A program made the translations under genes and the position numbers. Positions 1,087-55,700 of a DNA stretch of 64,000 nucleotides are shown here, piece after piece (the stretch's first letter is position 1; every line of letters starts with the position of its first letter). This stretch comes from Geosiphon pyriformis uo1 (taxonomy: Eukaryota; Fungi; Glomeromycota): positions 62,001 through 126,000 of the forward strand of contig JAAOMT010000659.1 in NCBI GenBank assembly GCA_016748015.1, given 5' to 3'. Under the pieces are notes generated by a model. That model made no database searches. It saw only the letters and a list, made by a program, of their open reading frames with translations, and was not told the DNA's origin.

Positions 1087-1902
1087 TATTATTTATAAAA
1101 AGAAAAACATATATAGAAAATAGTAAACCAATAGGAGAGTAGTAGTTAGCATGTGAGCATATTGCTTAGCAATATGAAGCAATGTTAGAAAAGTAGGACA
1201 TATTGCTTAGCAATGTGAGCATTGCTCAAAAAATTATAGCATATTGCTTGAGAATGTGAGTGATCTCATAGAACATCAATTATATATATATAGCAATAGT
1301 ATTAGAAGCAAAAAAGACAAACTTCTCAGTTTAGATTTAATTTAAGCAATCTTCTATATCACAAATATTAATAAATCATTATTTGCATCTCAATCTACTC
1401 TCCATTATTAACACTTTATGTTAATAGTAATTGATACTTAACCATGCTAAAACAATAACTCTTAATTACAGCTATTGACAAGATACTAACATTTATTGCC
1501 TTGGCTTATTTCTTTAATTTTCTTTTAATTTTCTTTTATTTTATTTTTGCTTTGTTATTTCTTGTTGTTGACTAATTGATTAAAAAATAAAAACATTGAG
1601 TTATTAACATTACAGATAGCCTGGTAAAAAACCCAGAAATAAAAATAGAATTATATATATTAACAGATAGCTTACCAAAAGAACATGACTGTCAGAAATA
1701 ACCAGTTACCAAGCTGAAAACAGAAATTGGGAAACTCTACACAAAAGAATTGCACACCATTAAATCTCTGTTTATTATACAAAGAACTTAACCAAAACCT
1801 TCAGATCATGAAAACTTTTAGAAACCAATATTATTATATTAACTAAACACCAAGCTATGGATTTGTTATTTGCTTTGAAACTCCAAATAATCATTTCTAA
1901 CA
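1087..1902 (+). repeat. LTR type A1 (3' LTR)
   Basis: Ends T(A)TTA..TAACA; CCAAT box, CACATTGCTNAGCAATGTG dyads, TATATA; R/U5 shared with 12544, 37923, 53416 and 62846. Confidence 0.9.
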
Positions 1903-16300: not shown

Positions 16301-18352
16301 TTCTCTGGTGTTCTTTGTGGATATTGGGTAATTTTTGTTGGCATATTGCTCAATTTCGTAATGAATTTGAACAATAGTCATGGCTAATGCTGTTGTTTCT
16401 TTTGTAGTAAATTGAGATAATTCCTTATATAATTGATGTTTTGCATCATTTGGTTCTTCTTTCTTTCCTGTGTGATAATTTATTCTGGCATTAATGTAAT
16501 AGGTGAGAACATTTTCAGTTGGACAACACTCTTCTGGTAATTCAAAATTACTTTGATGTTGTAAATAAAGGGCATGGCAAAATTCAACAACAGTAAGGTT
16601 AAGAGCTTTTGTCACCACTTTTGTTTCTTCCTTTTTAGCAATAAATTATTGCTAATTATTATTTTCTTTTTGATTTTCTTTCCTCATAAGGTTTACCAAA
16701 TGTTATGAGAGTGTTTTTTTGGTATATTTTAATTGTTGATCTCCCATTTTAATTGCAATCAGTCTCTCATAAGTTCTTCTATTTTATGTGTTGGATATTA
16801 ATGATGATGTACTAAAGGTTTTCTCTTGATGTTGTGATATAAGTCTTCTCTTTAATTCTAGTTGTCTTTGTATATTGTGTACTCCTTCCCAAAGGCTAAT
16901 CTGAAATCTACTTGCTGTCTGGGGTCTTCTCTGAGGCTATCTTTGCAATTGCCTGATGTGTTTTTCTAATCTAGAAACATGAAATGTTAATGGCCTTTTC
17001 ACAATTTTCCCAAGTATATAATAAAGCTTTTTCAATTTAATTAGTAACCATATGAATAATCTTGATCAAAGATTATTCTTCCAAAGAGTTCAGAGATGGA
17101 ATAATAGTTTCATTCACTAGAGAGGGTATGTGAATTTTATTGTTAATCTCATAATTGTAATGTTTATTCAATTTATTATTTTTTTTTTATTAATTATTTT
17201 TGAATAAGATTTTATTTAGATATTTGTTGCTTTTAGTTAAAGCTGTTTTTCTTTATCATTAAAAACTATTGTATATATATATAATTATTGTTTTACAAAA
17301 TAATGTCTTGTAATACTTTATTTTTATTATTTCTAAATAGTGCTTGCTGTTATTGTGAAATAGTGCTTGCTGCTTTTGCACGATAGTGCTTGCTGCTATT
17401 GTAAAATAGTGCTTGCTGTTATTTGTAAATCATTTCTTTTTATAAATTGTTGCTGTGCTATTTCATGATTAGCTAATTTATATTATTTATAATTCTTATT
17501 AAATTCTTAAATTGTAACAGTAGTAAAAAAGGTGTTATCTTTTCTAGTGTTTGTTGGTGCCCATTTAATAATTCTTTGCTAAGCATTGGCATTGGTTTCT
17601 TGTAAGAACCAAGTAGCAAAAGAGCCTTGAAGGTAGCCACCAACAATTTGGAACTTGTATTTATTATTATATTGGTTGGCTATAATAGCTCTTTTAAAGT
17701 TATCTAACCATTCAATTGGATCTTGTGCATCACTTCTAAATAAAAGTAGTAGAGAGTTATTTCTTTGCCCTAAAGCAGTTTGTATGCCTTGAAGGGCAAT
17801 CAGAATATTTTGTTGCATGGAGTTATTAGCCATTGGTTCAGGAGTAGCTGTTTGTGTAGAATGTTCTGATTTACTTGAAAAGAGGTCAAAAACAGGAGAA
17901 GTTTGATAGCTTTCTTTTTCTGTTTCAAAGGGTGTTTCAGCTAGCTAATAGACAGCAATCCAAATATGAATTTGATAATTCAGGTATTCAGAATTAGGGA
18001 GCTGTTGTTCAAAAGTTGTGGAGTATAAAAGCTGATTAATGCTGTTATTTTTTTTTTAAAATTGTCTTCAAAATAAGCTTGGTTAAAGTAATAAGTTGTA
18101 TAAGCTATGTAGGTTTTAGCTAAATGTTCATTTAAAAACCAGTTTTAAAAATTTTGAAATTGTCTACTGGATTGTTTTTCAATAGGGAAGCAAATCAAGC
18201 AGAAGAGCAAAAGATTGAATTCAATAAAGTCTAAATTATTTTTGTTGTGTGTTTCAAAGTGTTCTTTTGATTGTTGTGACAGATATAAATAATTACCCAC
18301 ACAATAGAAAACAAAGTAGATTTTGACAACCTCACAGAAAGCACCACTTTTA

Positions 18353-19002
18353 TGTTATGAGTTGAAATAACAAGCTAACAGATAGCAAAAGAGAACAAGA
18401 TTGTAGAACAATAAAAGAAATCAAAAAGAATTCAACTTTAAAGAGTGAATTGAATAAGTATAAATTCAATGTGTAAGATTAGTCTCATAAAATATCTCAG
18501 TTACTATGCTTTTTAAAAGATAATCAGAGAATCTAAAAATAGAAAGATAATCTGTATTGTCAACAAATAATCATGCCTGGTATAATTTTATGTCTTATAT
18601 TAACACTCTTAAAATTCAATATCAAGTATCAGATGTTCTTTTCAGTTATGTTTTATTCAATAATCTTCAAATGTTACAATTACACATTTTAGGAAAAAGA
18701 TAGAGAATAACCAATAAGTAATCTTTTATCTTAAAATGATCAGATACTTAAAGATAAGAAAAGAAAAATTAGTAAGAAGAGAAAAATTAAGATAAAGTTG
18801 TTATTTTATTTCTTTTATTTCTTTTATTTCTTTGATTCTTACATACATTTTTACAGCTAAGAGATTCATCACTTATATAGCTATCAAAAGTGATTAATGA
18901 TTAGATTAATAATCACTTTTTAAAAATAGAATGACTAATTATATGACATCAATAACTGATATATGTAATAATTAATAAGAAGTATAAGTTTCAACCATAA
19001 CA
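18353..19002 (-). repeat. LTR type B (5' LTR of B2)
   Basis: TGTTATG..CATAACA ends; homologous to 21872-22549 and 31873-32610; PBS adjacent. Confidence 0.93.
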
Positions 19003-22000
19003 ATATCTTTAGGATTAATTAAAGGAGAATGTATACCAATTTGTGAAATTAATGGTTCAGAATTGTTTCTAAAATGATAATATTTTAATCGATCTCTATG
19101 TGCAATTTTTGCTAGTATTTTGTCATCAAGTCTTAACTTGTATGATTTATTGTCTAGAATTTCGTAAATATAAAATGGTCCATCTTATTTATGTTCAAAT
19201 TTCCCACTTTATTGTTTTTCAGTCTTAGTTCTGTGTAAAAGAACTTTATTTTTAAGTTTAAATTCATTAATAATTGGTAATAATTTGTTATTGTGCTTTT
19301 TTTTTGTTGAGCTTGGAGGTGTTCAATATGAGTAATTGCTATTTGTCTTTTTCCTTCCAATATACTAAAAAGAGTGTAAACTCTTCTCTGAAGTGTTTCT
19401 TGAAAGTTTTCTTCATTAATTGGTTGCATTGGATATGTTTTTACTGTAAAATTAATTGGTAATCTTGTTGTTCTTTCATAAATAAGATTAAATGATATGT
19501 GTTTTATAGTATTTTATTTTAGTGTTCTGTAGGCTAGTAACACTGATGAAATAAATATATTTTATTCCTGCTCAAAATTTGTTGAGACTTTGGCTAAAGA
19601 TTCACACAATATTCTGTTAAAACATTTTACAAGTCTATTTGTTTGAGTTGGAAAGTAGAATATGTCTTACTATTTTGATGAAATTAGAAACAATTTGAGA
19701 GTTTTCATCTTAGAAGATATTGTTATGTATAATTTTAATTTTTAATTTATTTAATAAAAAAATAAAGTAATTGTTGGAATTGTAAAATATAACTCAAAAT
19801 TTCTTCATTTTTTTTGGTATATAGACATTTGGAATTGAGATTTCATGCTTTAAACAGATTTGTTTATTGGATTCAAAAATTTATTAGGTAGTAATGAATT
19901 TTAAGCAAATGTAAATTTTGTGATGTTTTCTAAAAGGTGAAATAATAATTGGTTGAAAAAGTTGAAAAATCTGGTGAGATTCATTTTGTGCTTTAAGAGC
20001 TATGTTTACTGGAACTGTGAATCATCCAATTGAACCAAAATCTTGAGTTCTTCTTTTACTTTTTTTTAATTGTTCTTTGTTGTTAACTAATTACAAACCC
20101 AAAATATTGATTAAGAATAAGTAAATTGCTTGAGCAATTTTTTCAGTATGTTTAATCTTAAATAGTTTGTCTGTTTTATTTTGTAACATAATAGTAATAT
20201 TTCCAGTGTATTCTGTATCTATAATTCTTTTTCTAACATTGATTTTTTTGCTTGCCAATAATAATCTGGAAGCAATTTGGACTATTGCTCATGGTAGAAT
20301 TTCAAGAGCAATTCTGAGATTGATTTTGGTTAAAGATTTTGGTTAAAAGACCAAAATATCTTTTTCTAGATATCATAGATCATATTCAGCATATATATTG
20401 TGAGTTTTTTCTGGCTTGATTTCTTGACCATTGTTGTTAAAGTATTTAAGTTGTAAGGCTAATTGATTTTCAGTAAGGTAGATTGAAATTGTTGCAATTT
20501 TTTCTTCTGGCTTAAATTCTCCAAACTCAATTTTCTTCTGGTTATCTTTGCTGGGTAAGAGAATGCTAAGGACATAGCATTCTGAATACTATTTATCATT
20601 ACAAGACATGATGCATTCTTCACATAATTGAATGTTTATTTGCTTTAATTGTTAAATTTGAGCTTTTTGGATTGGATAAGTATGGCTTGCAATTTGGTAA
20701 TATGTTTTTACTTCATTTTTATAGTTGAATTCAGTTAATTTTATTGTGTATTCAATGTATTTAGCTTTTTTTATTTGGTGGACATCTTTTTGTGTGGCTT
20801 CATTGATTAAAGCTATTGCTAAATCAAAAATCATTTTAGTATTGTAAGAGTAGTAGTAGAATTTGTTGAGAACACTATTGTATATTGTATTAAAAGATGT
20901 TCCTCTTCTGACTTTTTCTGAGATTAATAGAGCATATTGGCAAGTTTGATTACATACTTCTTTTCTTATTGCAATATCAATCTAATTGTATTCTTTTGGT
21001 AGTATGTTTCTACATATGAGACAAGAAATGTTGTTCTATTTTCCACTTTTTTTGGAGTATTCAAATTATTTTCTATGGCATGCTTTACAAAAGTAGCAAG
21101 TGTGTGTTTCATATTCTTTTTTTGAAGATATGTATTAATGAAAGTTTTTTGTTGTAATCTTTGTATTTAAGTGGGATGTAAGATAGTTGTTTCTGTGGTT
21201 CTGGTGTAAAGTATCAAATAATATTTTATTCTTTGGTTTTCTTGAAAATTTCTTGTTCTGTTTCTTCAGTCTAATTGGATGTTAATCTAAGGACTATGTA
21301 TGTTTTAGTAATTGGCATTTCTTTTTTTTCTTTAAATTCAAATACTGGGGCTTTTTCAGATTGTTTATTAAAAGTACCACAGATAGCAAGTACTCTGGTG
21401 TATTGTCTTTTGTATAAAATTTTTAGTTCTTGGGTTTTTCAATATAAATTTGCATTGGTCTTGAGAAGCCAATTGTTTTTAACCAGAGCTTAGTATTAGG
21501 GTGCATCTATAATTAAAACTTTGATTGAGATGGTATTTCATTAATGATAAATGGAAAGTTGTCAATTTCTCCTACTGAGATTTTTTTTATGTTATCAGCT
21601 GTAACAATTACAGTTTGAACTGGTCTGTTAACGTTTTTTCCAAGCTGTTGCATCAATTAATAAGTAATAATACTTTCAGCAAATCTACTGTTTAAAATCA
21701 AGCAGATTTGTTTTTTTTCTACTTCAGCTTCAATATACATAACAGTGATTGCTTTTTGCTCATTGACTGCTGTATTGCTAAGTAAGAATGGTGATTTATT
21801 GGCTTTAAATTCAAATAGAAATATATCTGAGAGATTGGTATTTTGAGCAATTTGGGCTGGTAAAATAGTATTGTTATGGATTGGAGTAACAAGCTAACAG
21901 ATAGCAAAAAAAAACAGAATTGTAGAGTAATGAAAGTAATCAAAAAGAATTCAACTTTAAAGAGCAAATTGAATAAGTATGGATTTAATATGTGAGATTA

Positions 22001-22518
22001 GTTTCATAAAATATCTCTGTCACTATACTTTTCAAAGATAACTGGGGAATCTAAAAATAAAGAAATAGTCCATATTGTTAATAAATGATCATGCCTAGTA
22101 TAATTTTATGTCTTATGTCAGCACTCTTAGAATTCAATATCAGGTATTAGATATACTCTTTAGTTATGTTTTATTTAATAATTTTTAAATGTTGCAATTA
22201 TACATTTCAGAAAAAGTGTAAAGAATAACCAACAAGTAATCTTTTATCCCAAGATGTTTGGATATTTGAAGATAGAAAAGGAGGAATTAGCAATAAGAAA
22301 ATGATTGAAATAAAAGTTGTTATTTTATTTATTTTCTTTCTTTGATTCTTACATACATTTCTACAGCTAAGAGATTCATTGCTTATATAGCTGTCAAAAG
22401 TAGTCAATGATTAGATCAATGACTAGGTCAATAATCAAGTCAATGATCAAGTCAATGATCACTTTCTAAAAATAGAGTGGCTAATTTATGTGACATCAAT
22501 GGCTAATACATGTGATAT

Positions 22519-28826: not shown

Positions 28827-31816
28827 TGTTACAGGTGATTATTTCTGTTGTTAAATTAAATAACAAATCTGTAACTTGGTGCTCAAAAGCTACTTCCGTT
28901 GATGATGTTCTGAAAGTGTTGTATCTGAAGGTTTTGATAGAGTTCTTTGTATAATGAACAGAGATTCACTAGTGTCAATAATAGATGTATCTTTCCAAGA
29001 CTTTTCCCAATTTTTTTCTCAGTGTGGTGGCTGGATTTAGTTTGGCAGTTGTGCCTTTTTAGTAAGCTATCCAATAATATATAAAATTCTACCCTTATTT
29101 CTGGGTCTTTTACCAGGCTATCCTTGACATCAATAACTCAATGCTTAATTTTTTAATCAATTAGTATACAACAATAAAATCACAAAAAGAAAGAAAATAA
29201 AATAAAGAAAATAAAAAATAAAAAAAATAGAGAAAATAAGCCAAGACAATTTGGTATGTTAGTATCTCATCAATAGCCGTGATTAAAAGCTATTGTTCTA
29301 GCGTGGTTAAGTATCAATTACTATTAACATGAAGTGTTGATAGTAGAGAGTGGGTTAAGATAGGAAATAATTATTTATTTAATGATTGGGAACTGGAATG
29401 TTGCTTAGATTAAATCTAAACTGAGAGGTTTAAACTAAAAGAGTTTTTTTTTTTTTTTTGTATTTTAATAATTATGATTTGTGAGTCTAATTGATTCTAT
29501 GAATCTAATTGACTCTGCAAATTAATTAACTCTGAGTCTCATTGACTAATTTTCTAACTTCTGATACTACTACTATATATACGTATTTGAGATTCCTCAA
29601 TTCTTCATGTCAGGAATTCTGGAATTCCTAAAATCTTGCAATTCCTTTAAGAGAAATTCTGAAATTCTGAAATCCTACAATTTCTTATACAAGAATCCTG
29701 AAATTCCTGGAATTTTGTAATTCCTCTGAGAGAAATTCTGGAATTCCATATTTACTACATCTACCTCTGATTGGCTAATTTATATGTTAATATACTTCCT
29801 ATATTCTATGAGTAACATTATTCCCTCCTTTAATATTGAGCTCCTGCGAAATTTTCTAAATCTCTCTTTTGTATCAATGTTGTTGCTGTAATTTTTATTG
29901 CTATTTGTAAATCTAATTTTATATGTGACTGGAGTTTTTAACTATAGTGATCTGTCCAGAATATCCATGTTCAAATCTTGCATCTGTATTATGTGCATGT
30001 TCAGACATAATGTCCTCATTATTATCACTGAATTGAATTAATTCCTGCTCCATTGTAAGATCTAGAAGTGTGATATATTGTTTAGTGTTTGAAGTGGAGT
30101 TTGAATCATTGTTGTTATTGTCAGCAGAGTTTAAATTGTCGTCATCGTCATCAGCAGAGTTTGAATCGGGATTAAGTTCTGATTCCAATTCTCGCTAATT
30201 GGCTCATCTTCCTCAGAGTTCAAATATATGATGCATGGAAGTGGATTGTGACTTGGGACCATCAGGTGAGTTTTGATGATTTGTTGATTGATTTTGGTAC
30301 TGCTGATTCTCAAATTCTTTTTTCTTCTCTAAGTCTTTTTCATATTGACACTTTTCCCAATGCTGACTTTTGGCATAGAAGAAGGCAGTTTTTGCACAGG
30401 TAAGTATGAATCTGGGTAGTTTTTTTTCTGGAATTCTTCCAACGGGTCTTTAAATAATCAGAGTTTTGAATTTCTAGAGGTTTGATGGGTTTTATCTGAG
30501 GTAAGTTTCTTTCTACATGAGCAGGATTGGAATTTTATCAGGTTTTGAATGTTCAGGTTTTGAACTATTGGGTCTTAAAGAATTGGAGTTTTAACAAGTT
30601 TTATCGGAGGTAAGTTTCTTTATATGATAGCAGGATTGGGATTATCGGGTTTCAAATAATTTTTGGAGTTTTTAATTTAACAAGTTTATCGAAGGTAATA
30701 GTAAAATAAGAATTTCATGAATCTTAAGTGATTTTTCCTTGTTTTCTCTTGGTCTGCCACTTTTGAATAGTTGTTAGTGCTGGTTCTCTGTAGAATTATA
30801 CTTCACAGAAAGTACCAAATGTTACAGGTGATTATTTCTGTTGTTGAATTAAATAACAAATCTGTAACTTGGTGCTCAAAAGCTACTTCCATTGATGATG
30901 TTTTGAAAGTGTTGTATCTGAAGGTTTTGATAGAGTTCTTTGTATAATGGACAAAGATTCACTAGTGTTGATAATAGATGTATCTTTCCAAGAGTTTTCC
31001 CAATTTTTTTCTCAGCGTGATGGGCGGATTTAGTCTGACAGTCATGCCCTTCTAGTAAGCTATCTGATAATATATAAAATCCTACCCTTATTTCTGGGTC
31101 TTTTACCAGGCTATCCTTGACATCAATAACTTAGCACTTAATCTTTTAATCAATTAGTATACAACAATAAAATCACAGAAAGAAAGAAAATAAAATAAAG
31201 AAAATAAAAAATAAAGAAAATAGAGAAAATAAGCCAAGGCAATTTGGTACATTAGTATTTCATCAATAGCCATGATTAAGAGCTATTGTTTCAGTGTGGT
31301 TAAGTATCAATTACTATCAACATAAAGTGTTGATAGTGGAGAGTGGGTTGAGATAGGAAATAATTATTTATTTGATGATTGGGAACTGGAATGTTGCTTA
31401 GATTAAATCTAAACTGAGAGGTTTAAACTAAAAGAGTTTGTTTTTTTTTTGTATTTTAATAATTATGATTTGTGAATCTAATTGATTCTATGAGTCTAAT
31501 TGACTCTGCGAATCAATTAACTCTAAGTCTCATTGACTAATTTTCTAACTTCTGATACTACTACTATATATACGTATTTGAGATTCCTCAATTCCTCAAT
31601 TCTTTATGTCAGAAATTCTGGAATTCCTGGAATCCTGCAATTCCTTTGAGAAGAATTCTGGAATTCTGGAATCCTGCAATTCTTTATACAAGAATCCTGA
31701 AATTCCTAGAATCTTGTAATTCCTCTGAGAGGAATCCTGAAATTCCACATTTACTATGTCTACCTTTGATTGGCTAATTTATATGCTAATATACTTCCTA
31801 TATTCTATGAGTAACA
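28827..31816 (-). mobile_element. Non-autonomous LTR element (two ~990-bp A2-type LTRs, ~1 kb internal mosaic)
   Basis: LTRs 28827-29817 and 30820-31816; TSD CCAT/TCAT; PBS 30801-30817; PPT 29818-29832; internal region contains only scraps of pol. Confidence 0.93.
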
Positions 31817-32404
31817 TCATACAATAGAAAACAAGATGGATTTTGACAATCTCACAGAGAGCACTACTTTTATGTTATGGGTTGGAGTAACAAGCTAATA
31901 GATAGCAAGGGAGAACAGGATTGTAGAGTAATAAAAGTAATTAAAAGGAATTCAACTTTAAAGAGCAAATTGAATAAATATAGATTCAATATGCGAGATC
32001 AGTCTCATAAAATATCTCAATTGCTATACTTTTCAAAAATAACCAAAGAATCTGAAGGTAGAGGGATAGTTCATACTGTCAACAAATAATCATGCTTGGT
32101 ATAATTCTATGCCTTACGTTGGTGCTCTTAGAATTCAATATCAGGTATTAAATGTATTTTTTAGTCATGTTTTATTCAATAATCTTCAAATGCTACAATT
32201 ATACATTTTAGGAAAAGGGTAAGGAATAACCAACAAGTAATTTTTTATCTCAAGATGTTCAGATACTTAAAGATAGGGAAAGAGAAATTAGTGATAAGAG
32301 AATAATTGAGATAAAAGTTGTTATTTTATTTATTTTCTTTCTTTGATTCTTACATATATTTCTATAGCTAAAAAATTTATTGCTTATATAGCTGTCAAAA
32401 GTGG

Positions 32405-32522
32405 TCAATGATCAAGTCAATGACTAGGTCAATAATCAAGTTAATGATCAAGTCATTGATCAAATCAATAATTAAGTCAATGATCAAATCAACAGTCAGA
32501 TTATTAATCAAGTCAATAATCA
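32405..32522. repeat. 12-bp AATGATCARGTC tandem array in U3 of LTR B
   Basis: About 10 units here, ~5 at 22405-22460, ~7 at 2043-2130 and ~2-3 near 18890-18915. Confidence 0.85.
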
Positions 32523-34565
32523 CTTTCTAAAAATAAAGTGGCTAATTTATGTGACATCAATGGCTAATACATGTGATAATTAATAAGAAGTATAAGTTTC
32601 AACCATAACAGTATTGTTAGAAAGATTTGATTTTGGTGTTACAACTTTACTTTTAGAAAGTACAGTTTGTTGAAAATTTGATTCTTCAAGCATTGTGAAA
32701 TAGCTGGGTTGAGTGTGGTAGTAATTGGATCTTTACTGACCAGAATTTTAAAAAACCAACTGGTTGTTTGAGTTGATTCTGTTGTTATTATTCTGGAATT
32801 AATTTTGAGGTGTAAATTGGTTTTGTTGAACCAATTTTTAGGCTGGTATTTGATATTGTTGTGTAGATGGTTATTAATACTATTGAATTGGTAGAGATTG
32901 TTGATATTGCTATTATAGAACAGGCTAATAGTAATTGTTTTGCTGTTGGAATCTTAAAGAATAGTAGACTGGTAGTGAAGACTGATAATGAGATTGCTGT
33001 ATTAAAGAATAATATTAATTACTTTTGTTTTGTTGGTCTCTTTATAGTTTTTTGCAGTTTCATTTTCAATGTCTTGAAATTCCACAATAATAACAACTTT
33101 AGTTTTGGCTGTTTGATGATAATGAATAATTGTTTTAATTGTATTGTTGGGATGACTAATATCTTTGTGATTGTTGCTGTTATTGTTGGTTGGTAAAATA
33201 ATTTTCAACTTTTTTTGTGAGTTGGTCAATTTTTTTTTCAGCTATTGAACTGGTTTTTTCAATAGTAAGATTTACAAGTTTGGTATGATTTGTTTCTTTT
33301 ATTGTCATTTTATAGTTTTTTGCATGTGTGGTAATTGTTGTTAAGTTTGTTAGGACATGTGAACAAACTTTCTTGATTAGTTTATCTTTTAATTCTGCAA
33401 TAAATTGATTCAAAATCTGGGTATTGGAATAGTAGTCATTGGTTTTCAGTTGTTAAATTTGTCTAAAAAGTTTATTAAATCTTCCAAAATAGATCATGAC
33501 AGTTTTAGATGTTTCTTGTTTGATATTGCAAAAACAATTTCAAAAAGTGATAAAGGTGTTGTTGTCAGTAAATTGTTATAAGAAAGCATCTTTGAATGTT
33601 TGCTAGTTTTCAAATAATTCTTCTAAGTTTTCAAATCATTCTTTTGCAGTTCTTTGAAGAAAGTATAAGATTGCTTTAAGCATTTTTACAGCACTCTATC
33701 TGTTTGTATCTTCTGCTTTCTGGACTTTGTTAAGTTATTTTTAAGAGCTGGTATTATTATTTTTATCAGTAAATTCTGGAATCTTTGCAATATAAGCAGT
33801 TGCCATTTCTTTTTTGTTTTCTGTAGTTTCTTTTTGTTCTGATTCAGTTTCTTCACTTTCCAAGTTCTCTGAATGATTACTCTTGTTTTTTTGTAAGTAA
33901 TCAAAAAGATTTGTACTGGTTGATATTGGTTTTTGCTGTTGAATAAGACTTTTAGGTGATTAAAAATCTTTTGGTCTTGAAAAACGGATAAATGGTGAAT
34001 TTGGTGTTTGTGGTTAAGCAAATAAAATTGGAAATGGTGTAATAGAAAGTGGTAATTTAATACTGGTTCCTTGTTTAGGTGTTTGTAAATATTTGGCAAT
34101 TGTTTTTGGTGTTCTTGGAGTGTTTAAAATAGTTTTTGAGTGTTGTTTCAATTTTTGTTTGTTTTTGTTTGTTTCTGTTTCAGATTTAAAGTCAAGAGAG
34201 TATTTAGACTATACTAGATATATTTTTTCACAATACTAAATAATATTAAAATTAAGTTCTTGAAAGTAAGTGCCAAGTGTTTCACTATTAAAGTCTTCAG
34301 TTTTTAATTGTAAATAGTGCAATAAATTATTGTAGAAGTTGTTTTTAACTTCTGAAATGTTGTAATTTCCAAAAAAATAATTGTTAATATAGTTTTTAAT
34401 GTATTGATATAGTGATATCTTGAAAATTTTAATTCTGTCTTGGATGTTAAATTTTTGCTTGTAATAAGTGTAAATTAACTGATAATACTCTAGAATTGTT
34501 GTATATAGTGTGGTCACCATTTTGAATTTGTTGTTGCTGTATTATTTTCATAGGAGAGCACTTAA

Positions 34566-43342: not shown

Positions 43343-44271
43343 TATTACTCATAAGAAAAACATATAAAAAAAATAGAAAGAAAACAGATAGACCAATATT
43401 ACTTATAGAAATATAGAGAATATATATATTAGCATAGTTATTAACCAATCAGAAGTAGACGTAGTAAAATGTGGAATTTCAGGATTTTTCTCAAGAATTG
43501 CAGGATTCCAGAAATTACAGGATTCTCACAAGGAATCACAGGATTCCAGAATTCCAGAATTCCTCTCAAAGAAATTGCAGAATTCCAGGAATTCCAGAAT
43601 TCCTGTAGTGAAAAATTAAGGAATTGAGGAATCTCAATTATGTATATATAGCAGTAGGATTAGAAGCTAAAAAGACAGACCTCTTAGTTTAGATTTCATT
43701 TAGACAACTTTCCAAACCACAAATAAATAACTGTTTGTTATCTCAAACCCACTGCCACTATCAACACTTTATGTTGATAGTAATTGATACTTAACTATAC
43801 TGGAACAATAGCTCTTGATCATGGTTATTGATGGAATACTAACTTGCAAATTGCCTTGGCTTATTTCTTTTTTTTCTTTATTTTCTTTTTTTTTCTTTAT
43901 TTCTTGTCTTGATTTTATTGTTGTTTACTAACTCTATTGAGAATTAATGTGTGAGGTACTAATGTCAGAATAAACATGACTGGTAAAAGACCCAGAAATA
44001 AGGGTAGAACACTCGATTGAGGATAGCTTACCAGAAAAAATACCGGCCATCAAGCTGAGAAAAAAATTGACAAAACTGCGGTTTCAAAAAGCTACAGATA
44101 AAACTATTACCATTGAATCTCTGTTTATTATACAAAGAACTCAACTAAACTCTTTAGATACAAATCTTTCAGACATAAATCTTCAGATTACTATCAACTG
44201 CAACTAGAGTTGAGCACCAAGTTATGGGTTTGTTATCTAATCCAACACCAAAACTAGTCACCTGTAACATT

Positions 44272-44288
44272 TGGTGCTCCTTGTGAAG
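44272..44288 (+). promoter_or_regulatory. Primer binding site, tRNA-Met(elongator)- or Ile(UAU)-like
   Basis: TGG-T-GCTCCTT-GTGAA-G, 2 nt after the LTR; consensus with 54115, 18330, 30801 and 31850 is TGGTGCTCYCTGTGAGG, i.e. the complement of CCA, discriminator, acceptor stem and T-stem. Confidence 0.85.
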
Positions 44289-44328
44289 TATAATCCTACA
44301 AAGAACCAGCACCAACACAAATCTAAAA

Positions 44329-47300
44329 GTCACAGAATCAGAAAACATAGGAGCAAACCATCTAGGATTCGCAAAATCCTTATTTCAACACTACTGTCAA
44401 CATTTGGGATTAAATTACAACCACATATTAGCAGAATTAGTTTCAATTTCTATTTCAATAAAAGAATTGCCTATTTGTTAGGAACACCAGTAAATATCAA
44501 ATCGGCAAGAGAAGCCTTTTACAGTAAATTAATTCAAAATACCAATCTGCCAACAAATCACAATTTCGCCTCCATCATTATGGAAATCAACAAAGAAATT
44601 GAACACCACACACAGCAAAAATACCCCATTACTTACGCAAGCAAAGGCAAAAGAAAACTGCAAATACCAACAGTAACATCCAAAAGAATACAACCACCTA
44701 CTTGGAAGAAAACAAGAGTTGAATCCCTAATTAATCTATCATATTACTATATACCCAGAAGCACCATTAATATTACATCTACTGGCGTGACCACATCAAA
44801 CATAACATCAGCATTTGGATGATTTCCATTCCAAAGTAAACAAAAGAAAGCAGAGTTATTAGGACCATATGGCACATATTTTAAAGGATTTAACTCATAA
44901 TCATCAATGCCATCAAGACTCCAATCACTACCGTTTTCCTCAGATTTCGGAATTTTTGATCTGTGGAAAGTAATGGAATCAGAAGAAGAGGAAGAAGAAG
45001 AAGCTAAAAATCAAGAATTTACTTACCAGAACCTGATCACTGAAAACCCGGAATTTGAAACCCCGAATCTTCAAATCCAGCAAAATCTAAACCCAGAAAA
45101 TCTGGAAATTGAAACTCTGAACATTCAGACACCACCAACTCAGGATAATCGAAACCCCAATTTAATAAATCAACAAAACTTACCTCCAGTAATCATTATC
45201 AATCAACCACCAATTAATTCAATAGCTGAACCCATATAACCGTCACTTTAAATACCACCCCAACAACCCATGCAACAACAACCACTTCAACTACCACCAC
45301 AACAGCCCAACTTAGATCTAATGGCCTATGCACCAATCACAAAACTTGACAATTTTACCAGTGAAGAAGACGACACCTAAATATGGCTCAATGATGTTGA
45401 AAAAGCCATAGTAGCCAATGAATAGAACAATGGTAGAGCTCTTCAAGTGATCCCCTATTTTTTCAAAGATACTGCCGACTCATGGTATCAGAGCCTAGCT
45501 GCCAAACCACAAATCTTTAATGAGTTCAAAACAGAATTCTTGAGATACTTTAGTAATAACAATAATATCAATCACTTGACCAACACATTCACTACCATTA
45601 AACAAGAGGACACAGAAGCAGTCACCACTTACTTGGAACACTTCTATAGAAATCTGCGCCAAATTCAGGCAATCCAAGCTGATTACTTTACAGCATCACA
45701 GATCTTGAACCAGTTCATCAGAGGATTGCACAGTAGCATCCTTCAGCAAATACGTTTAATGCATCCAGTTGACCTCCCAACCACCATCACCCATGCCAGA
45801 GATTTTGAAGCAGCCGAGCTAAAAGCCAACCATGCCCAAGCTGTAAATTTAGTGATGAACAGATTATCTGACTTGGATTCCAAACTGAAACAATTCAGTG
45901 ATACAATCAATCAGAAACTTGAGGGATACTTAGCTGACAATCATGCAATCTATCAACCACTACAATGACACAATAATTCAGAAAACATGAATTGTTTCCA
46001 AAATCAGTCGTATCTATCAACATTATCATCATTATCATTACCCAATCAGCCATGGCAGCCAGAAATGCATGTTTGCCACAATTGTGGTAAACAAGATCAC
46101 ATTAGAGCTGACTGTCAATTTTATAGCAACAATCTATGATTAGGAAATTAATATTGAAACCCTGATTGCAGATTTTAGACTCAGAATCACTACCCAAATC
46201 AAGACCAATATCAAACCACTTACCTGCCAATAATGCAGCAACCAATCTATCAACCACCAGTATATCAATTTCCAATTTATCAACTGTAGCCACCAGTAAT
46301 TTATCAGCCACAGCCCCAAATAATTTATTAGTCCCAACAACCAATTCAAACACCACTCCAAAACCCCACTCAAATGACATCAGAAAACCCAAGACCTAGA
46401 ATCACTCAAAACTGGAGATCAGTGATAGTTGTTTATCAACCAATTCCCAGCTTCTCTAACCAACTATTAGGCTCTCAACAGTGGAATTTGGGTACCAGTT
46501 TCACCCAAAACCCAAATTCTCAGAACTATTTAAGTCTTCTGGTTACCCCAGAAGATGCCACTACCAACAACTCGGAATTCAACCCACCCCAAACAACACT
46601 CACCAACAATATTTTACCAGCAATGATCACCGAAAATGAATCTCTCGCAGCTATCTTTCCTTTCAAATTGGAGGAAACCATCAACCCATCTTTGTTTAGT
46701 GAAGCAGCACTCAAAGAAAAACTCATCACTGCAATATACACTGATGCGAAAGTTGATGGTCACTCCATCAAACTAATCCTAGATAGTGGATCAGCTGGCA
46801 GCATCATCACAAGACAACTTATGGATCAATTAAGTCACCAAGTTGATTGTACTGCCAGCACCAGGATTATTACAGCCAATAGAGCAACCAAAACACCCAT
46901 TGGAAAGATTAATGATTTTCCCATAGAAGTCAATGACATTATAATACCAATCAAAATACTCGTCATGGAAGCCACTCAATACCAAGCACTTGTTGGGAAT
47001 TACTGGCTGTCCAAAACCAACATAATCCTAGATTGGAACACCCAAGAGCTCCAGCTTAGCCAGAATGGTCAACACACACAGGTACTAGTCATGTGTGGCC
47101 ACTTCAAGCCCATTACCATGCCATCAAGACCACTTATCGAATTTGAGAAAAAAAAAGTGAAACCCATCTGGAAAGTGTACCAAGTCTCATGGGCTGATGT
47201 CGATCACAATGAACTGCTGCCAATACTCATTTGAAACAACAACGACAACAAAAAGAAGAAACAAAGAGAAGAACCTACCTGGGAAGCCACCATTGATGCT

Positions 47301-50300
47301 TGGACTGACAACAACCAAAGTGAGATGCCACCAATTCTAGATTGGGAAGAAAAAAACAAAGAAAAAGGAAAAGGAAGGGAAGAAAACATACTTGAAGAAA
47401 CCACCACTACAGAAGAAATAACTAGTGGCTGGGAAAGGGAATATTCATGTGAACCAATAAAAGAGCCACCATATATACCTCTCAAATGCAAGGACTGTGA
47501 GAAAAAACTGTCTTCAATGGGAGCTTGGGTAGTGCCAAATAAAGACTACTGGATGCAAATCCATTACTATTACAAGCCTTGCCATAGAGAATGATATGAC
47601 TACCCAAAAAGACAAGGCAAGTGGGACAATGAACCATGTCTTGCTTGCGGTAAACAATTACTCAATGAAAAAATGTGGAATAACATTTCTGGTTGAGAAG
47701 AAATGTGTGACACTTCGTGCCAATACACAATCCTCATCAGTAATTGGATGAGTCATAGTATGCCTATTATAGCAGCATGGCACCAAGTTATATCTTGTCT
47801 AAATGGCTATTCACACGATGAGAACAAAATCTGGCAAATGGTCAATGTTAAAGTAGAAGGCACTTTGCCCAGTAAAATTCTGGAGATCAAAAATAACCCT
47901 CCAGAACCAACAGACATTGTTTTGGTTCTCAACCCGGACGCCTTTATTGACTTAGAAAACAGCCCAGAAGAATTTCATAAACACTATCAGAATTTAACAC
48001 CCATAAGAGAAGAGCAAAAGCAATGCTTGGAAGAAATCAACACCCAATTATGTGACTACTGTTTGATTCCATGTAACTTCCAATTCTGTGATGATTGTAA
48101 TCTTATCTACAATCCACCACCACACATGATCTACACGATTTCCGAAGAAAAAAAACCAATCAACAGCTGTGCATCAAAATCAAAATTGAGTTCCAACCCT
48201 GATTTAAACTCTGACAACAATGATAATGAAAATAATAGTTCCAGTTCTATTCAATATAACTATAATAATGACAATAATTCCAACTCAGATTCAAACTTCG
48301 ATTTAAACTATGAACAATATATTGCACTCCCTGATCTCACCAAGAAACAAGAACTAAAATGATTCAGTGATAATAATGAAGCTATTATGCTGGAACACAC
48401 ACATGATACTAATGCTGGATTTGATTTGAAGTATCCAGGAAAAGATGCCATTAAATTGAAACCATATTTGCACATCTGCATAGATCTTAAAATAGCTTTG
48501 GAAATTTTAGCAACAACAATAGTTCAACTAGCTTCAAGGAGTAGTTTAGTGAAAAGAGGGATAAACATCAAAGAAGGAATAATTGATGCAAGATATATAA
48601 GAAATATTATTGCTATACTACAAAATGACTCAGAAAAGGCCTATGTTATAGAGCCAAATGAAAGGATAGCACAGACAATATTCCTGCCTCTGGTTAAAAT
48701 AGCTCAGTTAGTGTTAGTAAAAAATAAGGAAGAATTAGGGATAACAGCAAGAGGGATACAGAGATTTAGATCAACGGATAGAATAAATGTACCAGTTAAT
48801 ATGGTGGAGAAAAAAATTATTGGCCAAAGAGAAATTATTTCAACCAGTCAAACAATTTCCATTCCACTAAATAGCCAATATATGTTAGCAATAAAAAGGA
48901 AAGAGAAAGAGCAAGAACAGATTTTTGAAGCAGAAACAATCCTTTGTGAATCAGAAGAAATTGAACTTATCAATTTACATATACTAGCCAAGAGCCATAA
49001 CCATATCAAAATTTCTATCTAGAACAACACCAGAAATGTTGTAGAAATACCGGAAGGAACCACTCTTAGATATTTAACCATGGAAATTAAAGATCAAGCA
49101 CCAAGCAGCATTCCAGATTTTCCACAGCTTTGTGGATATGTGGATATTACATTACAAACCATCTACAGACTAAATGAATGTTATCTGTTACAGCCAAAAC
49201 AATTGAAACAGATGAATATGAGAAATCTAGACTCACTTCAACAGATACAACTAAAAATGTTACTCAATAATTTCAATGACATCTTCACCAGTGAAAATGA
49301 ATTTGGCAGAACTGATATTATCCAGCATCAGATCAAAACTGGAGATGCAATGCCAATTAAACAGCAAACATACAGAGTACCACCAGCCAGCCATGAAATC
49401 ATCCATCAAGAGATCAACCAAATGCTTGACAATGGGTTAATTCAGTCATCAATGAGCCCATGGTCATTACCAGTAGTACTCATCCATAAGAAGAATAAAA
49501 AAATCCAATTTTGTGTAGACTACAGGAAACTCAATAGTGTAACTCATGGAGACAACTATCCAATTCCACAGATACAAGAACTATTTGACACTTTTGGTGG
49601 AAACAAATGATTCTCAATGTTAGACTTAGATAGTGGTTACTGGCAAGTAGTCATGGATCCAGCCAACAAAGAAAAAATGGTGTTCACCACAAGAGGGAAA
49701 ACTTTGAGTTTGAAGTTATGCCATTCAGCTTAACCAATATTCCAGCTATATTTCAACAGCTAATGAAAATTGTGTATACTGGCTTATTGTGGAAATCAGT
49801 AGTTGTATACTTGAATGATACCAATGTGTTCTCAAAAACATTGATGATTATCTACATCATTTTCAACAAGTGTTCAAAAAACTATGACAAGCAAGATTAA
49901 AATTGAATGCAACAAAGTGTTTTTTTGGCAAAACAAAACTAAAATTCTTGGAACACATAGTTAGCAAAGACAGCATAAAAACAGATCTGGAAAAAATAGA
50001 GATAGTAAAGAACTTTCCAATACCAACCAACGTAACTGAGCTGAAATCATTCTTGAGATTTGCGAGCTATTATAAACACTTTATAAAGAACTTTTCAAAG
50101 ATAGCACAATTACTCAATGATTTTTAAACCAAAAATGCAAAGTATGAATGGACTGAAACCCAGCAAGAAGCATTTGACATCTTAAGAAGAAAGCTTATTT
50201 AAGCTCCAGTATTGATTTATCCAGAACATAGTAAACTATTTATTATTACCACTGATGCATCAGGTCAAGCATTGGGAGCAGTATTATCTTAGAGAGAACC

Positions 50301-51985
50301 AGATGGAAGAGAACATCCAGTCGCATATGCCAGCCAAGGTTTAACACCAGCCGAAAAGAACTATAGAACACTAGAATTAGAACATTTAGCAATCTATTAG
50401 ACAGTTATGAAATGAAAAGAATACTTGAGCCAAAAGTTTGAGATGTACACAGATCACAAAGGATTGACATCACTCTAAAAACAAGAATTTGGAGACGGAA
50501 AACAGTTAAGATAGAAAATGGCACTTGTACTATATACTTATACCATACATTATAAAAAGGGAAAAGACAATGGAAATGCCAATGGTTTGTTGTGAATGAG
50601 ACAAATCTAAGAACATTTTAACCCAAAAATATAACAAAATCTGAACAATATTCACGAAAATATAACAAAAGATGAACACACAAAAATATTAACAACTTTA
50701 ACATTATATAAATACTCAACAGTTTAAAGAAAAATTATCTCAACCAGAACAAAAGAGGATTAAACAACAATCCAAATATTTTATCACTTACCAAAATATA
50801 CTTTATCGGAAAAATAGAAAAGATTCAGATCAATCAACCAGAGTAATTACAGAATCAAAAAAAGAGACAATACTGTTCAACATGCACTTAAATCTAACTG
50901 CAAGACATTTCCATAAAGAAACAACTATGGAAAAAACCAAAAAGGGATACTATTGGCCATCAATGTATTCAGACATCATCCAATATGTGCAAAATTGTGA
51001 TGCTTGTCAAAGAAGAGAAGGAACAAGACTCAGCAAACTATTAAGACCAATCAAAGTGGGACAACCATTTGACTGCATTGGAATCGATTTAGTTGAACCA
51101 TTGACAATTACCAGTAGAAACAACAGATATATTGCAATAGCTATGGACTATCTTACTAAATGGCCAGAAGCAAAAGCAATTTAAAGAGCGGATGCAGAAT
51201 CCATTGCTGAATTTGTTCATCAAGATCTGATTTGTTAACATGAATGTCCAAAAGAACTATTATCAGACCAAGGAACTCATTTTGTGAATAGAACATTAGC
51301 AGAACTAAGCCAAAGATTCGGAATTAAGAGACCACTATCATCACCATACCATCCACAAACCAATAGATTAGTTGAAAGATTTAATAGAACATTGTGTAAA
51401 GCAATAACAAAACTCAGCTAAGAAAACCAGAATGAATGGAATTTGTTTATACCATCAGTATTATTTGCTTATTAGACAATACACCATTTGAATTGATATA
51501 TGGTAAAACAACAACATTACCAGTTGAGATAGAGGTTAACACATATCCAACTGAACCAATAACAGAAGAGAATTTTCAAGAAACATTGTTAAGAAGAACA
51601 TATAACTTAATAGAAACATTGAAAACAAACAAAGAAGAGCAGCTAAGAACATACAAAAGTCACAAGAGAAACAAAAAGAAAAACATGATAACCAACTACC
51701 AGACAAACCAGTTGAATTCAAAATTGGAAACAAAGTACTCTTACATCATACCAAAGCAGAAAAACAATGGAGTGGAAAATTTGACTCCAAATGGGATGGA
51801 CCATTTCACATAAAAAAAATTCTAGGCAATAGAGCTTACAAATTAAGACTGGATAACAAAATCTTAACCAAAGCAGTACATAAAGATCGACTGAAATCAT
51901 ATTACAACATCACACCACCATCCACTAGTAATATTTTACAATTAGGAGTACAGAAGATACTAGTTCAACCAGAAGAGATTCCATG
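44329..51985 (+). pseudogene. gag-pol: Single-frame gag-pol polyprotein, decayed (~2500 codons)
   Basis: ORF fragments 44271, 44907, 45447, 46374, 47325, 47703, 48387 and 49080 share one frame. Capsid ~45321-45970; knuckle CHNCGKQDHIRADC 46074-46115; protease LDSGS 46779; RT YLND 49808; RNase H TDAS; integrase HHCC, GIDLV, SDQG, VERFN, WDGPF. Confidence 0.95.
48387..48780 (+). pseudogene. dut: dUTPase domain between protease and RT
   Basis: AGFDL, SRSSL, GIIDARY, ERIAQTIF, RGIQRFRST correspond to the five trimeric dUTPase motifs. Confidence 0.92.
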
Positions 51986-52019
51986 AGATCTGGAACCAAT
52001 CATCATTATTGACAACAAC

Positions 52020-52715: not shown

Positions 52716-55700
52716 AAGGAGAGAATAATGTTACTCATAGAAATATAGAGAATATATATATTAGCATAGTTATTAACCAATCAGAAGTAGATGTAGTAAA
52801 ATGTAGAATTCCAGAATTCCTCTCAGAAATTACAGGATTCCAGAAATTACAGAATTCTCACAAGAAATTGCAGGATTTCAGAATTCCAGAATTCCTCTTA
52901 AAGGAATTGCAAGATTCCTGTGGTAAAGAATTGAAGAATTGAGGAATCTCAATTATGTATATATAGTAGTAGGATTAGAAGCTAAAAAGACAGACCTCTT
53001 AATTTAAATTTCATCTAGACAACTTTCCAAACCACAAATAAATAACTGTTTGTTATTTCAAACCTGCTGCTATTATCAACACTTCATGTTAATAGTAATT
53101 GATACTTAACCACACTGGAACAATAGCTTTTGATTATGGCTATTGATAGAATACTAACTTGCAAATTGCCTTGGCTTATTTCTTTTCTTTCTTTATTTTC
53201 TTTTCTTTTCTTTATTTCTTGCCTTGATTTTGGGAAGCTACAGATAAAACTATTACCATTGAATCTCTGTCCATTATACAAAGAATTCAACCAAACCCTT
53301 CAGATACAAACCTTTCATACACAAACCTTCAGATTACTATCAACTGCAACTAGAGTTGAGCACCAAGTTATGGGTTTGTTATCTAATCCAACACCAGAAC
53401 TAGTCACCTGTAACACCAATAAGAGAATAGTAGTTAACACATGAGCACATTGTTCAAGAAATTATAGCACATTACTCAAAAATGTGAGCAATCTTATAGA
53501 ACCTAAATTATGTATATATAACAAAAGTATTAGAAACAAAAAAAAATAATTTAAGAATTACCAATATCTCTTTATTATCACATTTCTATTATAATTATTA
53601 ATATTAATAAATAATTATTATCATCTAAATTACTCTTTCCACTATCAACACTTCATGTTGATAGTATTAAATACTTGATTAAATTAAAACAATAGCTTTT
53701 GATCATAGCTATTAACAGGATATTAACATTACTTGCCTTGGCTTATATTTTATTTTTTTTAAATTTTCTTTTGTATTTTATTTTTTTGTTGTTACTAATT
53801 GATTAAAGATTAAGCACTGAGTTATTGACATCAAGGATTGTTTGGTAAAAAACTCCTGTAAGAGGGTAGACACTTAAAATTAAGAATTACTTATCAAAAA
53901 ATTACTGGTCACCAAGCCAAGAAAAAAATTGATGGAATTGTGATTCCAAAAAGCTACTAAAAACAACTATTAAATCTCTGTTTATTATACAAAAGACTTA
54001 ATTAAAACCTTCAGACAACCAAAATCTTCAGATTATAATAATTGTATCAACTATTAGTACCAAGTTACAGGTTTGTTATTTGATTTGAGACCCTAAATAA
54101 TTATTTGTAATATTTGGTGCTCTCTGTGAGGTATAATCCAACAGAGAACTAACATCAACAACAACCATTCAAAACAGTGGCAGAATTCAAAAAAACAGGA
54201 ACAAACCATTTGAAATTTGCAAAATCTTTATTCCAATATTATTACACCCATCTTGGATTAGTAAATAATAATTGGCAGCTTTCAATTATTATGTTAACAA
54301 AAAAATTGCATACTACTTAAGAGATTAAAGAGATCCAGAATCTATTTTCAACAATTTTTTTAGTGAACTATTCCAAAGCACTACTCTTTCACAAAACTAT
54401 TTATTTGCATTCCTAATCATGGAAATAAATAAGGAAATTAAAAAATACACCAAACAAAAATTTTTTATCACTTTTGTGAACAAAGAAAAAAAAATTACAA
54501 ACACCAGCAAGAACCCCAAAGCAAATTCAACTACTTACTTGGAAGAAACAAAAATTTGATTCACTTGCTAATCTATCATATTACCATACACTCAGAAGCA
54601 CTATCAATATAATAGATATATCTATAGTAAGTGCAACAACATTACTAAACAGAATCCCATTCCAAAGTAAACAAAAAAAAGCAAAGTTATTAAGAACATA
54701 TAGCAATTATTTTGAGAGATTTAACTCATAATTCTCAATGTCATTAAGAATTTGATTATTGCCACCACCACCAGATTTCAGAGCCACTAGTCCTTAGAAA
54801 TTAACTGACTTTGAAGAAAAAAATAGCAATCAGAGAATTAATACTAAAAACCCAATCTCAGAAAATCTGGAAAATTAAACTTCGAGTGTCCTAACTTCAA
54901 AAAATCAGAACAATTCTAATCCCAACATTATTAATCAGTAACACTTACCTCCAGTAATTATAATCAATCAGTCACCAATTGAACCAATTACTGAACCAAT
55001 TTAATAATCACAAGTATTACCTTAACAACAATCACAACAATTACTTCAACAATTGTTATAACAACAACTAATAGCATATGTACCAATTGCCAAAATCAAA
55101 AAATTTATTGGCAAAGAAAATGATGCCCAAGTGTGACTGAATAATGTAAAAAAAGCCATTATAGCCAATAGATAAAATGATGCCAAAGCACTCCAAGCCA
55201 TCTCATATTTTCTCTAGGATACCATCAACTTGTAATATCAAAGCTTGGCCAACAAATCTCAAGATTTCAATGCATTTAAGTTTGAGTTCCTATGATATTT
55301 TAGTAACAATAATAGTATTAATTACTTAGCCAATGCCTTCACCACCATTAAGCAAGATAAAACTAAAGCAGTTACTACTTACCTAGAACACTTCTACAGA
55401 AACTTGCACCAAATTCAAGCCATTGATGCCAATTATTTCACCATAGCCCAAATCTTGAATTAATTTATCTGTGAATTATGTAGCAACATCCTGCAACATA
55501 TACATCCACTACATCCAGCCAATCTTTAAACAGCTATCACTCATGTCAGAGATTTTAAAGCTGCAAAACTCAAAGCCAACCATGCACTAGCTGTGAATCT
55601 AGTAATAAATGGATTATCTGACTTGGATTCCAAATTGAAACAATTCAGTAATTCAATTAATCAGAAATTAGAAGAGTACTTAGCTAACAATTAGACAATC

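What the first reader, a model, noticed from the sequence alone, without database searches (positions are those of the whole stretch)
53325..53336. U5 boxes complementary to the anticodon arm of elongator tRNA-Met in four LTR types (bipartite primer binding)
Established: yeast and human elongator tRNA-Met contain UCAGUCUCAUAAUCUGAAGGUC. Seen, always as the complement on the element sense strand: ACCTTCAGATTA 53325-53336 (12/12) and ACCTTCAGATCATGA 1797-1811 (14/15) in A; TCAGTCTCATAA 31999-32010 (12/12, B); TCAGTC-TCTGAAGGTC 6123-6138 (E); TCAGTCTCTCATAA 16759-16772 (D). The PBS also fits elongator Met (..CCUCAC-N7-ACCA). Inference: these elements prime with elongator rather than initiator tRNA-Met and grip it with a second site on the anticodon arm. 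This is analogous to, but different from, the Ty1/Ty3 extended primer contacts.
Basis: partly seen in the sequence, partly recalled or inferred. Interest (0 to 1): 0.85.

Follow-up and report, generated by a model that had tools for sequence, protein, structure and literature searches.

The report
Gypsy LTRs with extra tRNA-Met boxes
Decayed jumping genes of a fungus carry, inside their terminal repeats, short conserved stretches that match the anticodon arm of elongator methionine tRNA, so they likely hold their primer tRNA at a second site much as HIV-1 is proposed to, though the host's own tRNA and the binding itself are untested.

Summary
All five quoted strings are present. They lie in LTRs of nested, decayed Ty3/Gypsy elements, host likely Geosiphon (Glomeromycota).

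The match is more than chance: combined p is about 3e-4 to 1e-3 after within-type correction, and this arm ranks 1 of 36 tRNA arms tested. All 9 A-type LTRs keep the core at fixed distances from the LTR end.

New here: the B lineage (about 40% RT/IN identity to A/D) has two colinear boxes covering 21 of 22 arm bases. A and E also carry a U5 mimic of the tRNA 3' end, predicted to fold over the PBS.

Limits: A and E are related, D is not significant alone, and the quoted 12-mer sits in a 3' LTR. The host tRNA-Met was not obtained. The only eukaryote-type tRNA-Met found with the exact PBS-complementary 3' end has a different anticodon stem.

Best reading (0.6): elongator tRNA-Met priming with extra U5 contacts on the anticodon arm. 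The closest precedent is HIV-1 U5 (A-rich loop; nt 142-148), not Ty1/Ty3. Verdict: new variant of a known kind.

The parts
52729..53415 (+). A-type 3' LTR (A7) of the element 43397-53415, which is inserted in LTR A8 with a 4-bp target duplication
53325..53336 (+). Quoted box, complement of tRNA-Met(e) 36-47 (12/12); last unit of a 15-nt tandem repeat
53297..53305 (+). First unit of the same repeat, complement of tRNA 38-46
43397..44269 (+). A-type 5' LTR (A6) of the same element
44179..44190 (+). 5' LTR twin of the quoted box (11/12, one C>T)
44212..44229 (+). U5 arm predicted to pair with the LTR end and the first PBS bases (mimic of the tRNA 3' end)
44272..44289 (+). PBS of A6, 14/18
45426..51986 (+). 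Broken gag, protease, dUTPase, pol, integrase and SH3 fragments of the A6-A7 element
53416..54112 (+). A-type 5' LTR (A8; its first 52 nt lie at 43345-43396)
54007..54036 (+). Two boxes in A8 (tRNA 39-47 exact; 35-45 exact)
54056..54072 (+). U5 arm of the predicted U5-PBS hairpin in A8 (z -2.47)
54115..54132 (+). PBS of A8, 17/18 to the 3' end of tRNA-Met gene L009 plus CCA
1797..1822 (+). Two boxes in A-type 3' LTR A1 (1087-1902)
30902..30925 (-). Two boxes in A-type 5' LTR A4 (30820-31816); twin in A3 at 28909-28932; PBS 30800-30817, 14/18
31873..32610 (-). B-type 5' LTR (B3), paired with 3' LTR B2 (21872-22549)
32049..32059 (-).
31999..32010 (-). B box 2, complement of tRNA 27-38 including the CAU anticodon (12/12)
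31849..31866 (-). PBS of B3, 6 nt from the LTR end; 15/18, with the second base restored in most host contigs
18479..18540 (-). Both boxes in B1 (LTR 18353-19002), differing only by C>T/G>A; PBS 18329-18346, 16/18
21998..22058 (-). Both boxes in B2, differing only by C>T/G>A
6021..7076 (-). E-type solo LTR, distant relative of A
6123..6138 (-). E box: complement of tRNA 39-48 joined directly to 27-32, leaving the anticodon loop out
6054..6071 (-). E U5 arm complementary to the LTR end plus the first 10 PBS bases
16759..16772 (-). D box in 5' LTR D2 (16701-17519): exact 8-nt core (tRNA 27-34); same core in D1 at 9248-9255; not significant alone
16681..16698 (-). PBS of D, only 11/18, with mismatches that C>T/G>A decay does not explain; primer uncertain

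Best explanation
These decayed fungal Ty3/Gypsy elements have an elongator-tRNA-Met-type primer site and conserved LTR boxes complementary to that tRNA's anticodon arm, and they likely primed reverse transcription with the tRNA held at both places. Shown by sequence: the PBS, the boxes, their fixed positions and their excess over chance. Inferred steps: (1) in A and E a U5 mimic of the tRNA 3' end would fold over the first 6-10 PBS bases; (2) the tRNA 3' 18 nt would displace it, probably helped by the Gag nucleocapsid; (3) the weak anticodon stem would open and pair with U5, through the 3' strand and variable loop in A, both strands without the loop in E, and nearly the whole arm across a folded spacer in B; (4) this would select and stabilise the primer and pace the start of minus-strand synthesis, until the polymerase copies through the boxes and releases the arm.
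For: Core complement of tRNA 39-47 in 9 of 9 A LTRs at -106/-107 and/or -89 to -91 with at most two C>T/G>A changes, exact in 5 of 9; background 9 such sites in 103,072 non-LTR positions. 251 of 261 differences between LTR pairs are transitions, so such changes fit decay after insertion. B3 covers 21 of 22 arm bases in two colinear blocks (p=0.0003; p=0.0007 against the whole tRNA body), and 3 of 3 complete B LTRs keep both boxes apart from decay changes. The exact 27-34 core occurs in B3, D1, D2 and E and 0 times in non-LTR DNA. This arm ranks 1 of 36 (65 versus next 55, median 35.5). Conservative Fisher p 3e-4 over four types, 1e-3 with A and E merged. Duplex energy is significant for the anticodon arm in 5 of 13 LTRs, for the T arm in 1 of 13 and for the D arm in 0 of 13. 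In a host run, 4643 contig records lie on the B3 U5 and none of the 40 differences shown falls in either box (p about 0.04). PBS 17/18 to a eukaryote-type tRNA-Met(CAT) gene; the 18th base is T in 5 of 5 A/B copies. Precedent in HIV-1 (PMC3185550, PMC1797187).
Against: The host tRNA-Met was not seen. The one eukaryote-type tRNA-Met found with the exact PBS-complementary end (L009) has a different anticodon stem, which the boxes do not fit, and a bacterial tRNA-Arg has nearly the same 3' end (L008), so a 3' end alone does not name the tRNA. 11 of 15 LTR copies are not significant by the two-block test, including the quoted one. D is weak and has a deviant PBS. No compensatory change between box and tRNA could be tested; the PBS scan of metagenomes gave 20 of 20 unrelated hits. 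The read test shows 40 of 91 differences and is biased because B3 was chosen for intact boxes. The B spacer folds no better than shuffles (z +0.4 to +1.3). The U5-PBS hairpin has z -1.3 to -2.5 and only 1 of 16 pairs with a two-sided change. Even in HIV-1, deleting the region with the stem/variable-loop contact had no detectable effect on replication in one study (PMC3185550).
Confidence: 0.6

Rival explanations
1. Relic of the primer: a read-through copy of the tRNA was once recombined into the LTR, and the boxes are its remains, kept by descent or for a reason other than binding the primer.
For: The boxes have the same polarity as the PBS. In A the order along U5 is colinear with the tRNA complement: a 7-nt stretch like the PBS middle, a 6-nt complement of tRNA 51-56 (8 of 9 A LTRs with at most one decay change), then the 39-47 core (alignment).
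Against: The boxes persist in lineages with about 40% RT/IN identity whose LTRs barely align, in three different layouts (tandem copies, loop left out, split by a spacer). A neutral relic should decay like its flanks. The T-arm match is not significant by duplex energy in any A copy.
Confidence: 0.15
2. The motifs are conserved for another job (Gag/packaging, dimerisation, RNA structure or protein binding), and the match to the tRNA arm is incidental.
For: U5 holds other blocks that are as conserved or more so and match no tRNA part. In A the core is a short tandem repeat. The E motif is partly self-complementary because the tRNA stem is.
Against: It does not explain why two different motifs map side by side on one tRNA arm, in the right order in B and E, on the tRNA type that the PBS names; rank 1 of 36 arms.
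Confidence: 0.15
3. Chance matches picked after the fact from several LTRs and a 22-nt target.
Against: B3 stays at p=0.0007 when the whole tRNA body is the target; combined p 3e-4 to 1e-3; the best of 114 non-LTR tiles scores 14 against 21, 16 and 16.
Confidence: 0.07
4. The boxes bind tRNA halves or fragments (host silencing target or decoy) rather than the intact primer.
For: tRNA fragments are reported to act on retrotransposons, at the PBS (PMC8215267, passage).
Against: Elements would be expected to lose a silencing target, not keep it (inference). The B and E boxes span both sides of the anticodon loop, which fits an intact tRNA better. No small-RNA data were available.
Confidence: 0.03

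Closest known systems
HIV-1 U5 contacts with primer tRNA-Lys3 (A-rich loop with anticodon loop; nt 142-148 with 3' anticodon stem and variable loop; PAS with the T arm); PMC3185550, passages read
   Same: Canonical 3'-end PBS plus U5 sequences upstream of it that are complementary to the anticodon arm; the A core targets the same tRNA part (3' stem strand plus variable loop) as HIV-1 142-148.
   Different: Fungal Gypsy retrotransposon; elongator tRNA-Met; longer boxes (9-12 nt each, up to 21 of 22 arm bases) lying 66-190 nt from the LTR end; no experimental support here.
HIV-1 engineered to use tRNA-Met, stabilised by a U5 anticodon complement (PMC1797187 and PMC3185550, passages read; the original paper was not held)
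   Same: Same combination: Met-type PBS plus U5 complement of the anticodon.
   Different: A laboratory mutant; here the arrangement appears natural and in at least two old lineages.
Ty3 bipartite PBS and Ty1 extended primer contacts (PMC5371799, section 2.1 read)
   Same: LTR retrotransposons that hold a tRNA-Met by more than one site.
   Different: They use initiator tRNA-Met and contact the acceptor, T and D arms; the second Ty3 site is in 3' U3. Here the PBS is a complete 17-18-mer and the extra sites face the anticodon arm.
Half-tRNA priming of copia and Ty5 (PMC5371799)
   Same: Pairing with the anticodon arm of a tRNA-Met.
   Different: There the arm complement is the PBS itself, next to the LTR; here it is inside the LTR and a normal 3'-end PBS exists.
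Retroviral U5-PBS / U5 inverted-repeat hairpins (named in a reference title in PMC3185550; details recalled)
   Same: A U5 stem that includes the LTR end and part of the PBS.
   Different: Here the U5 arm copies the last 8-10 bases of the primer tRNA.

Membership tests
Ty3/Gypsy LTR retrotransposon | Gag of Ty3 type and pol order protease-RT-integrase | tested here: met
   Pfam Ty3_capsid/Retrotrans_gag, aspartyl protease, RVT_1, Integrase_H2C2 and SH3_Tf2-1 fragments in that order along the elements; all frames are broken
Ty3/Gypsy LTR retrotransposon | TG..CA LTRs, PBS, polypurine tract, short target duplication | tested here: met
   16 LTR copies delimited; purine tracts before 3' LTRs; 4-bp duplications seen at four insertions
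Elongator tRNA-Met priming | PBS complementary to the 3' 18 nt of the host's elongator tRNA-Met | tested here: inconclusive
   17/18 to a non-host eukaryote-type tRNA-Met gene; host tRNA not obtained
Initiator tRNA-Met priming (Ty1/Ty3 type) | PBS complementary to initiator tRNA-Met | tested here: not met
   6/17 against the human initiator printed in PMC8216282 (by eye); host initiator not seen
Ty3-type bipartite PBS | Short 5' PBS with the rest of the site in 3' U3, pairing T and D arms | tested here: not met
   Full-length PBS; best matches fall near the LTR 3' end and on the anticodon arm; D-arm duplex significant in 0 of 13, using a stand-in tRNA
HIV-1-type extended U5-primer contact | U5 sequence complementary to the primer's anticodon arm, beyond chance | tested here: met
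   position in U5 inferred from TATA and AATAAA sites
HIV-1-type extended U5-primer contact | Pairing shown by probing, and function shown by mutation and compensation | not testable with these tools
   needs in vitro work
Primer activation signal (T-arm contact) | About 8-nt U5 complement of tRNA 48-55 | tested here: inconclusive
   6-nt match at a fixed place in 8 of 9 A LTRs and a 9-nt two-wobble match in D2; duplex energy significant in 1 of 13
Half-tRNA priming (copia/Ty5) | Anticodon-arm complement directly after the 5' LTR in place of a TGG-type PBS | tested here: not met
   TGG-type PBS follows the 5' LTRs

The most novel reading that the evidence does not exclude
These elements unfold their primer almost completely: a U5 mimic of the tRNA 3' end swaps partners with elongator tRNA-Met at the PBS, and lineage-specific U5 clamps grip both strands of the anticodon stem (up to 21 of 22 bases). 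This would be a modular RNA switch, rebuilt in at least three layouts, that takes a translating tRNA out of use and licenses reverse transcription.
Probability: 0.25. Interest if true: 0.72.

Novelty: new variant of a known kind. Interest (0 to 1): 0.52.

Why it matters
Whether primer contacts outside the PBS matter is still argued over for HIV-1 (PMC3185550). A natural family in which long anticodon-arm complements were kept in lineages about 40% alike in RT would show that such contacts are selected outside lentiviruses. It would give a cleaner test case, because the boxes are long and fungal tRNA-Met arms vary, which allows a covariation test. It would also add elongator tRNA-Met as a natural primer; four searches listed no paper on this, but the library lacks most subscription journals and Repbase-type records, so this is not proof of novelty.

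Tried and rejected
Host genome: none held. No tRNA gene in the window.

Relatives: PBS pattern in viral contigs gave 1 unrelated hit; a looser LTR-end plus PBS pattern gave 0; RT-based locus search gave 0; the single metagenome scan gave 20 of 20 unrelated hits, 18 of them one GC-rich sequence family, none a tRNA. No cross-species or covariation test was possible.

A tRNA with both the yeast/human-type arm and the PBS-fitting end: 0 in genome contigs. The PBS-fitting end alone: 2 in genome contigs, 0 in viral contigs, 0 papers.

Sequencing runs: no RNA holder listed, so no transcription start could be mapped. Only the B family was examined with host contigs; A-family copies elsewhere in the genome were not.

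Self-priming of Tf1 type considered because of the U5 complement to the PBS: rejected, since it lies about 56 nt from the LTR end, far downstream of the inferred start, and the PBS is a full tRNA-type site.

A-type scores in the whole-body test draw on a second block in the D arm of the stand-in tRNA; they were set aside and the weaker longest-match value used for the combined p.

Searches for an HIV-1 U3 motif pairing with the same tRNA part found nothing (paper id not held); I recall such work but do not rely on it. tRNA-Ile(UAU) as alternative primer was not tested.

Full report
Setting. The window is 29% GC and consists largely of nested, broken Ty3/Gypsy elements. The 120 listed best hits (of 662) of a gag-protease fragment are all Geosiphon pyriformis proteins, so the host is likely this Glomeromycota fungus or a close relative. 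A striking LTR expansion is reported for Geosiphonaceae (PMC11952901, passages). No genome is held and the window has no tRNA gene.

Anatomy. I delimited 16 LTR copies: 9 of type A, 4 of B (one truncated), 2 of D, 1 of E. The quoted box is in the 3' LTR of element 43397-53415, itself inserted in another A-type LTR. A 3' U5 copy could not act in the RNA leader, but it reflects the parent; the 5' twin has 11/12. A and D elements encode a dUTPase between protease and RT and are 55-60% alike; B is 38-43% alike to them in RT/IN and 26-28% in protease. E aligns in part with A. So there are two deep lineages, perhaps three cases. In most LTRs a TATA-like site lies 200-290 nt from the start with an AATAAA downstream, which places the boxes in a long U5; this is inferred.

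The tRNA. I used L004 as a stand-in. By eye the PBS matches human elongator Met 14/17 and initiator 6/17. A search for tRNA genes with the PBS-complementary end found 2: a bacterial tRNA-Arg and a eukaryote-type tRNA-Met(CAT) with an intron and oligo-T tail (L009; I read its anticodon by eye, ARAGORN placed the intron differently and called Thr). PBS copies match L009 17, 16, 15, 14, 14 and 11 of 18 (A8, B1, B3, A6, A4, D2). L009 has a different anticodon stem, and the boxes do not fit it. The host tRNA is therefore the main open point.

Chance tests. Longest exact match to the tRNA body, whole LTR, 300 shuffles: p<=0.05 in 8 of 15 copies, each time on the anticodon arm and within 140 nt of the LTR end. 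Two-block coverage of the arm, 3000 shuffles: B3 21/22 (p=0.0003), A8 16 (0.0007; its second block may be chance), E 16 (0.0037), B1 14 (0.023); the other 11 of 15 are not significant; the best of 114 non-LTR tiles scores 14. With the whole tRNA body as target B3 stays at 0.0007 and E at 0.028. Conservative combination gives p 3e-4, or 1e-3 with A and E merged. Summed over types, this arm ranks first of 36, mostly bacterial and phage arms.

Conservation. LTR pairs differ almost only by transitions (251 of 261). Allowing such decay, 9 of 9 A LTRs carry the 39-47 core at fixed offsets, often twice; 3 of 3 complete B LTRs carry both boxes; the exact 27-34 core is in B3, D1, D2 and E and absent from 103,072 non-LTR positions. 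Host contigs laid on the B3 U5 (4643 records) show B is a high-copy family; none of the 40 differences shown (51 more hidden) is in a box, and 32 of the 34 differences counted for run X2, which lie on one 270-nt contig, are outside them, the other 2 unlocated (p about 0.04 and 0.05). This is biased by the choice of B3 and is modest support.

Layouts. A pairs with the 3' stem strand and variable loop; E with both stem strands, looping out 33-38; B with 37-47 and then 27-38 across a 38-nt spacer (cofold -32.3 kcal/mol against -8.1 for the segment alone and -2.1 for the arm); D with 27-34 only. The spacer alone is not unusually stable.

Second feature. 8 of 9 A LTRs and E carry, 47-56 nt before the LTR end, a copy of the tRNA 3' end. 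In 3 of 3 A-type 5' LTRs the minimum-energy fold pairs it with the LTR end and the first PBS bases (z -2.47, -1.33, -1.49); the E arm forms 15 pairs with one mismatch against its own end plus the A8 PBS. Covariation is weak (1 of 16 pairs). B lacks it.

Mechanism and comparison. The most likely reading is elongator tRNA-Met priming with extra U5 contacts that select and hold the primer (0.6). All steps beyond sequence complementarity are inferred. It works like the HIV-1 U5 contacts with the anticodon loop and with the 3' stem plus variable loop (PMC3185550, passages), and like HIV-1 mutants stabilised on tRNA-Met by a U5 anticodon complement (PMC1797187, passages). It fails the Ty3 bipartite and half-tRNA definitions (PMC5371799, section 2.1). 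Earlier scan notes found by words concern Copia elements and half-tRNA priming, not this arrangement; three other look-ups were empty. Papers and 56 other than those named were seen only as listings; no supplements were read.

Verdict. Real and probably functional; a new variant of a known kind; interest 0.52, limited by the missing host tRNA and the lack of a covariation test.

Noticed in passing
window 48363-49022 (+), 57928-58803 (+), 11957-12667 (-): dUTPase domain between protease and RT in the A and D Gypsy elements; not detected in the B fragments scanned.
   Followed up: partly
window 31867-31872 and 18347-18352 (-): The B PBS is 6 nt from the LTR end in both 5' LTRs, against 2 nt in A and D; implies an unusual cDNA end.
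   Followed up: no
window 16681-16698 (-) and 44272-44289 (+): D and A6 PBS copies share a change at position 9, and D has two transversions; possibly a second primer tRNA or isodecoder. D U5 has a short matching complement 25 nt before the LTR end.
   Followed up: partly
window 28827-31816 (-): Short A-type element with two LTRs and only about 1 kb between them; a deleted or non-autonomous derivative.
   Followed up: no
window 36941-43344 approx.: DDE_3 transposase fragments (37212-37604, weak Pfam hit) and a 1.8-kb inverted duplication 38999-40786 / 41573-43344; likely Tc1/mariner-type DNA transposons.
   Followed up: no
window 35990-36384: 75/150-nt tandem array, 90-98% identical, ending at an N gap, next to an unannotated ORF 36421-36939.
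   Followed up: no
window 4485-5362: Exact 429-nt duplication across a 20-N gap; likely an assembly artefact.
   Followed up: no
L009:2001-2110: Eukaryote-type intron-containing tRNA-Met gene on a contig of a bacterial MAG, suggesting eukaryotic contamination of that bin.
   Followed up: partly
L001-L006: Viral contigs carry tRNA-Met genes with the same 22-nt anticodon arm as human elongator tRNA-Met.
   Followed up: no
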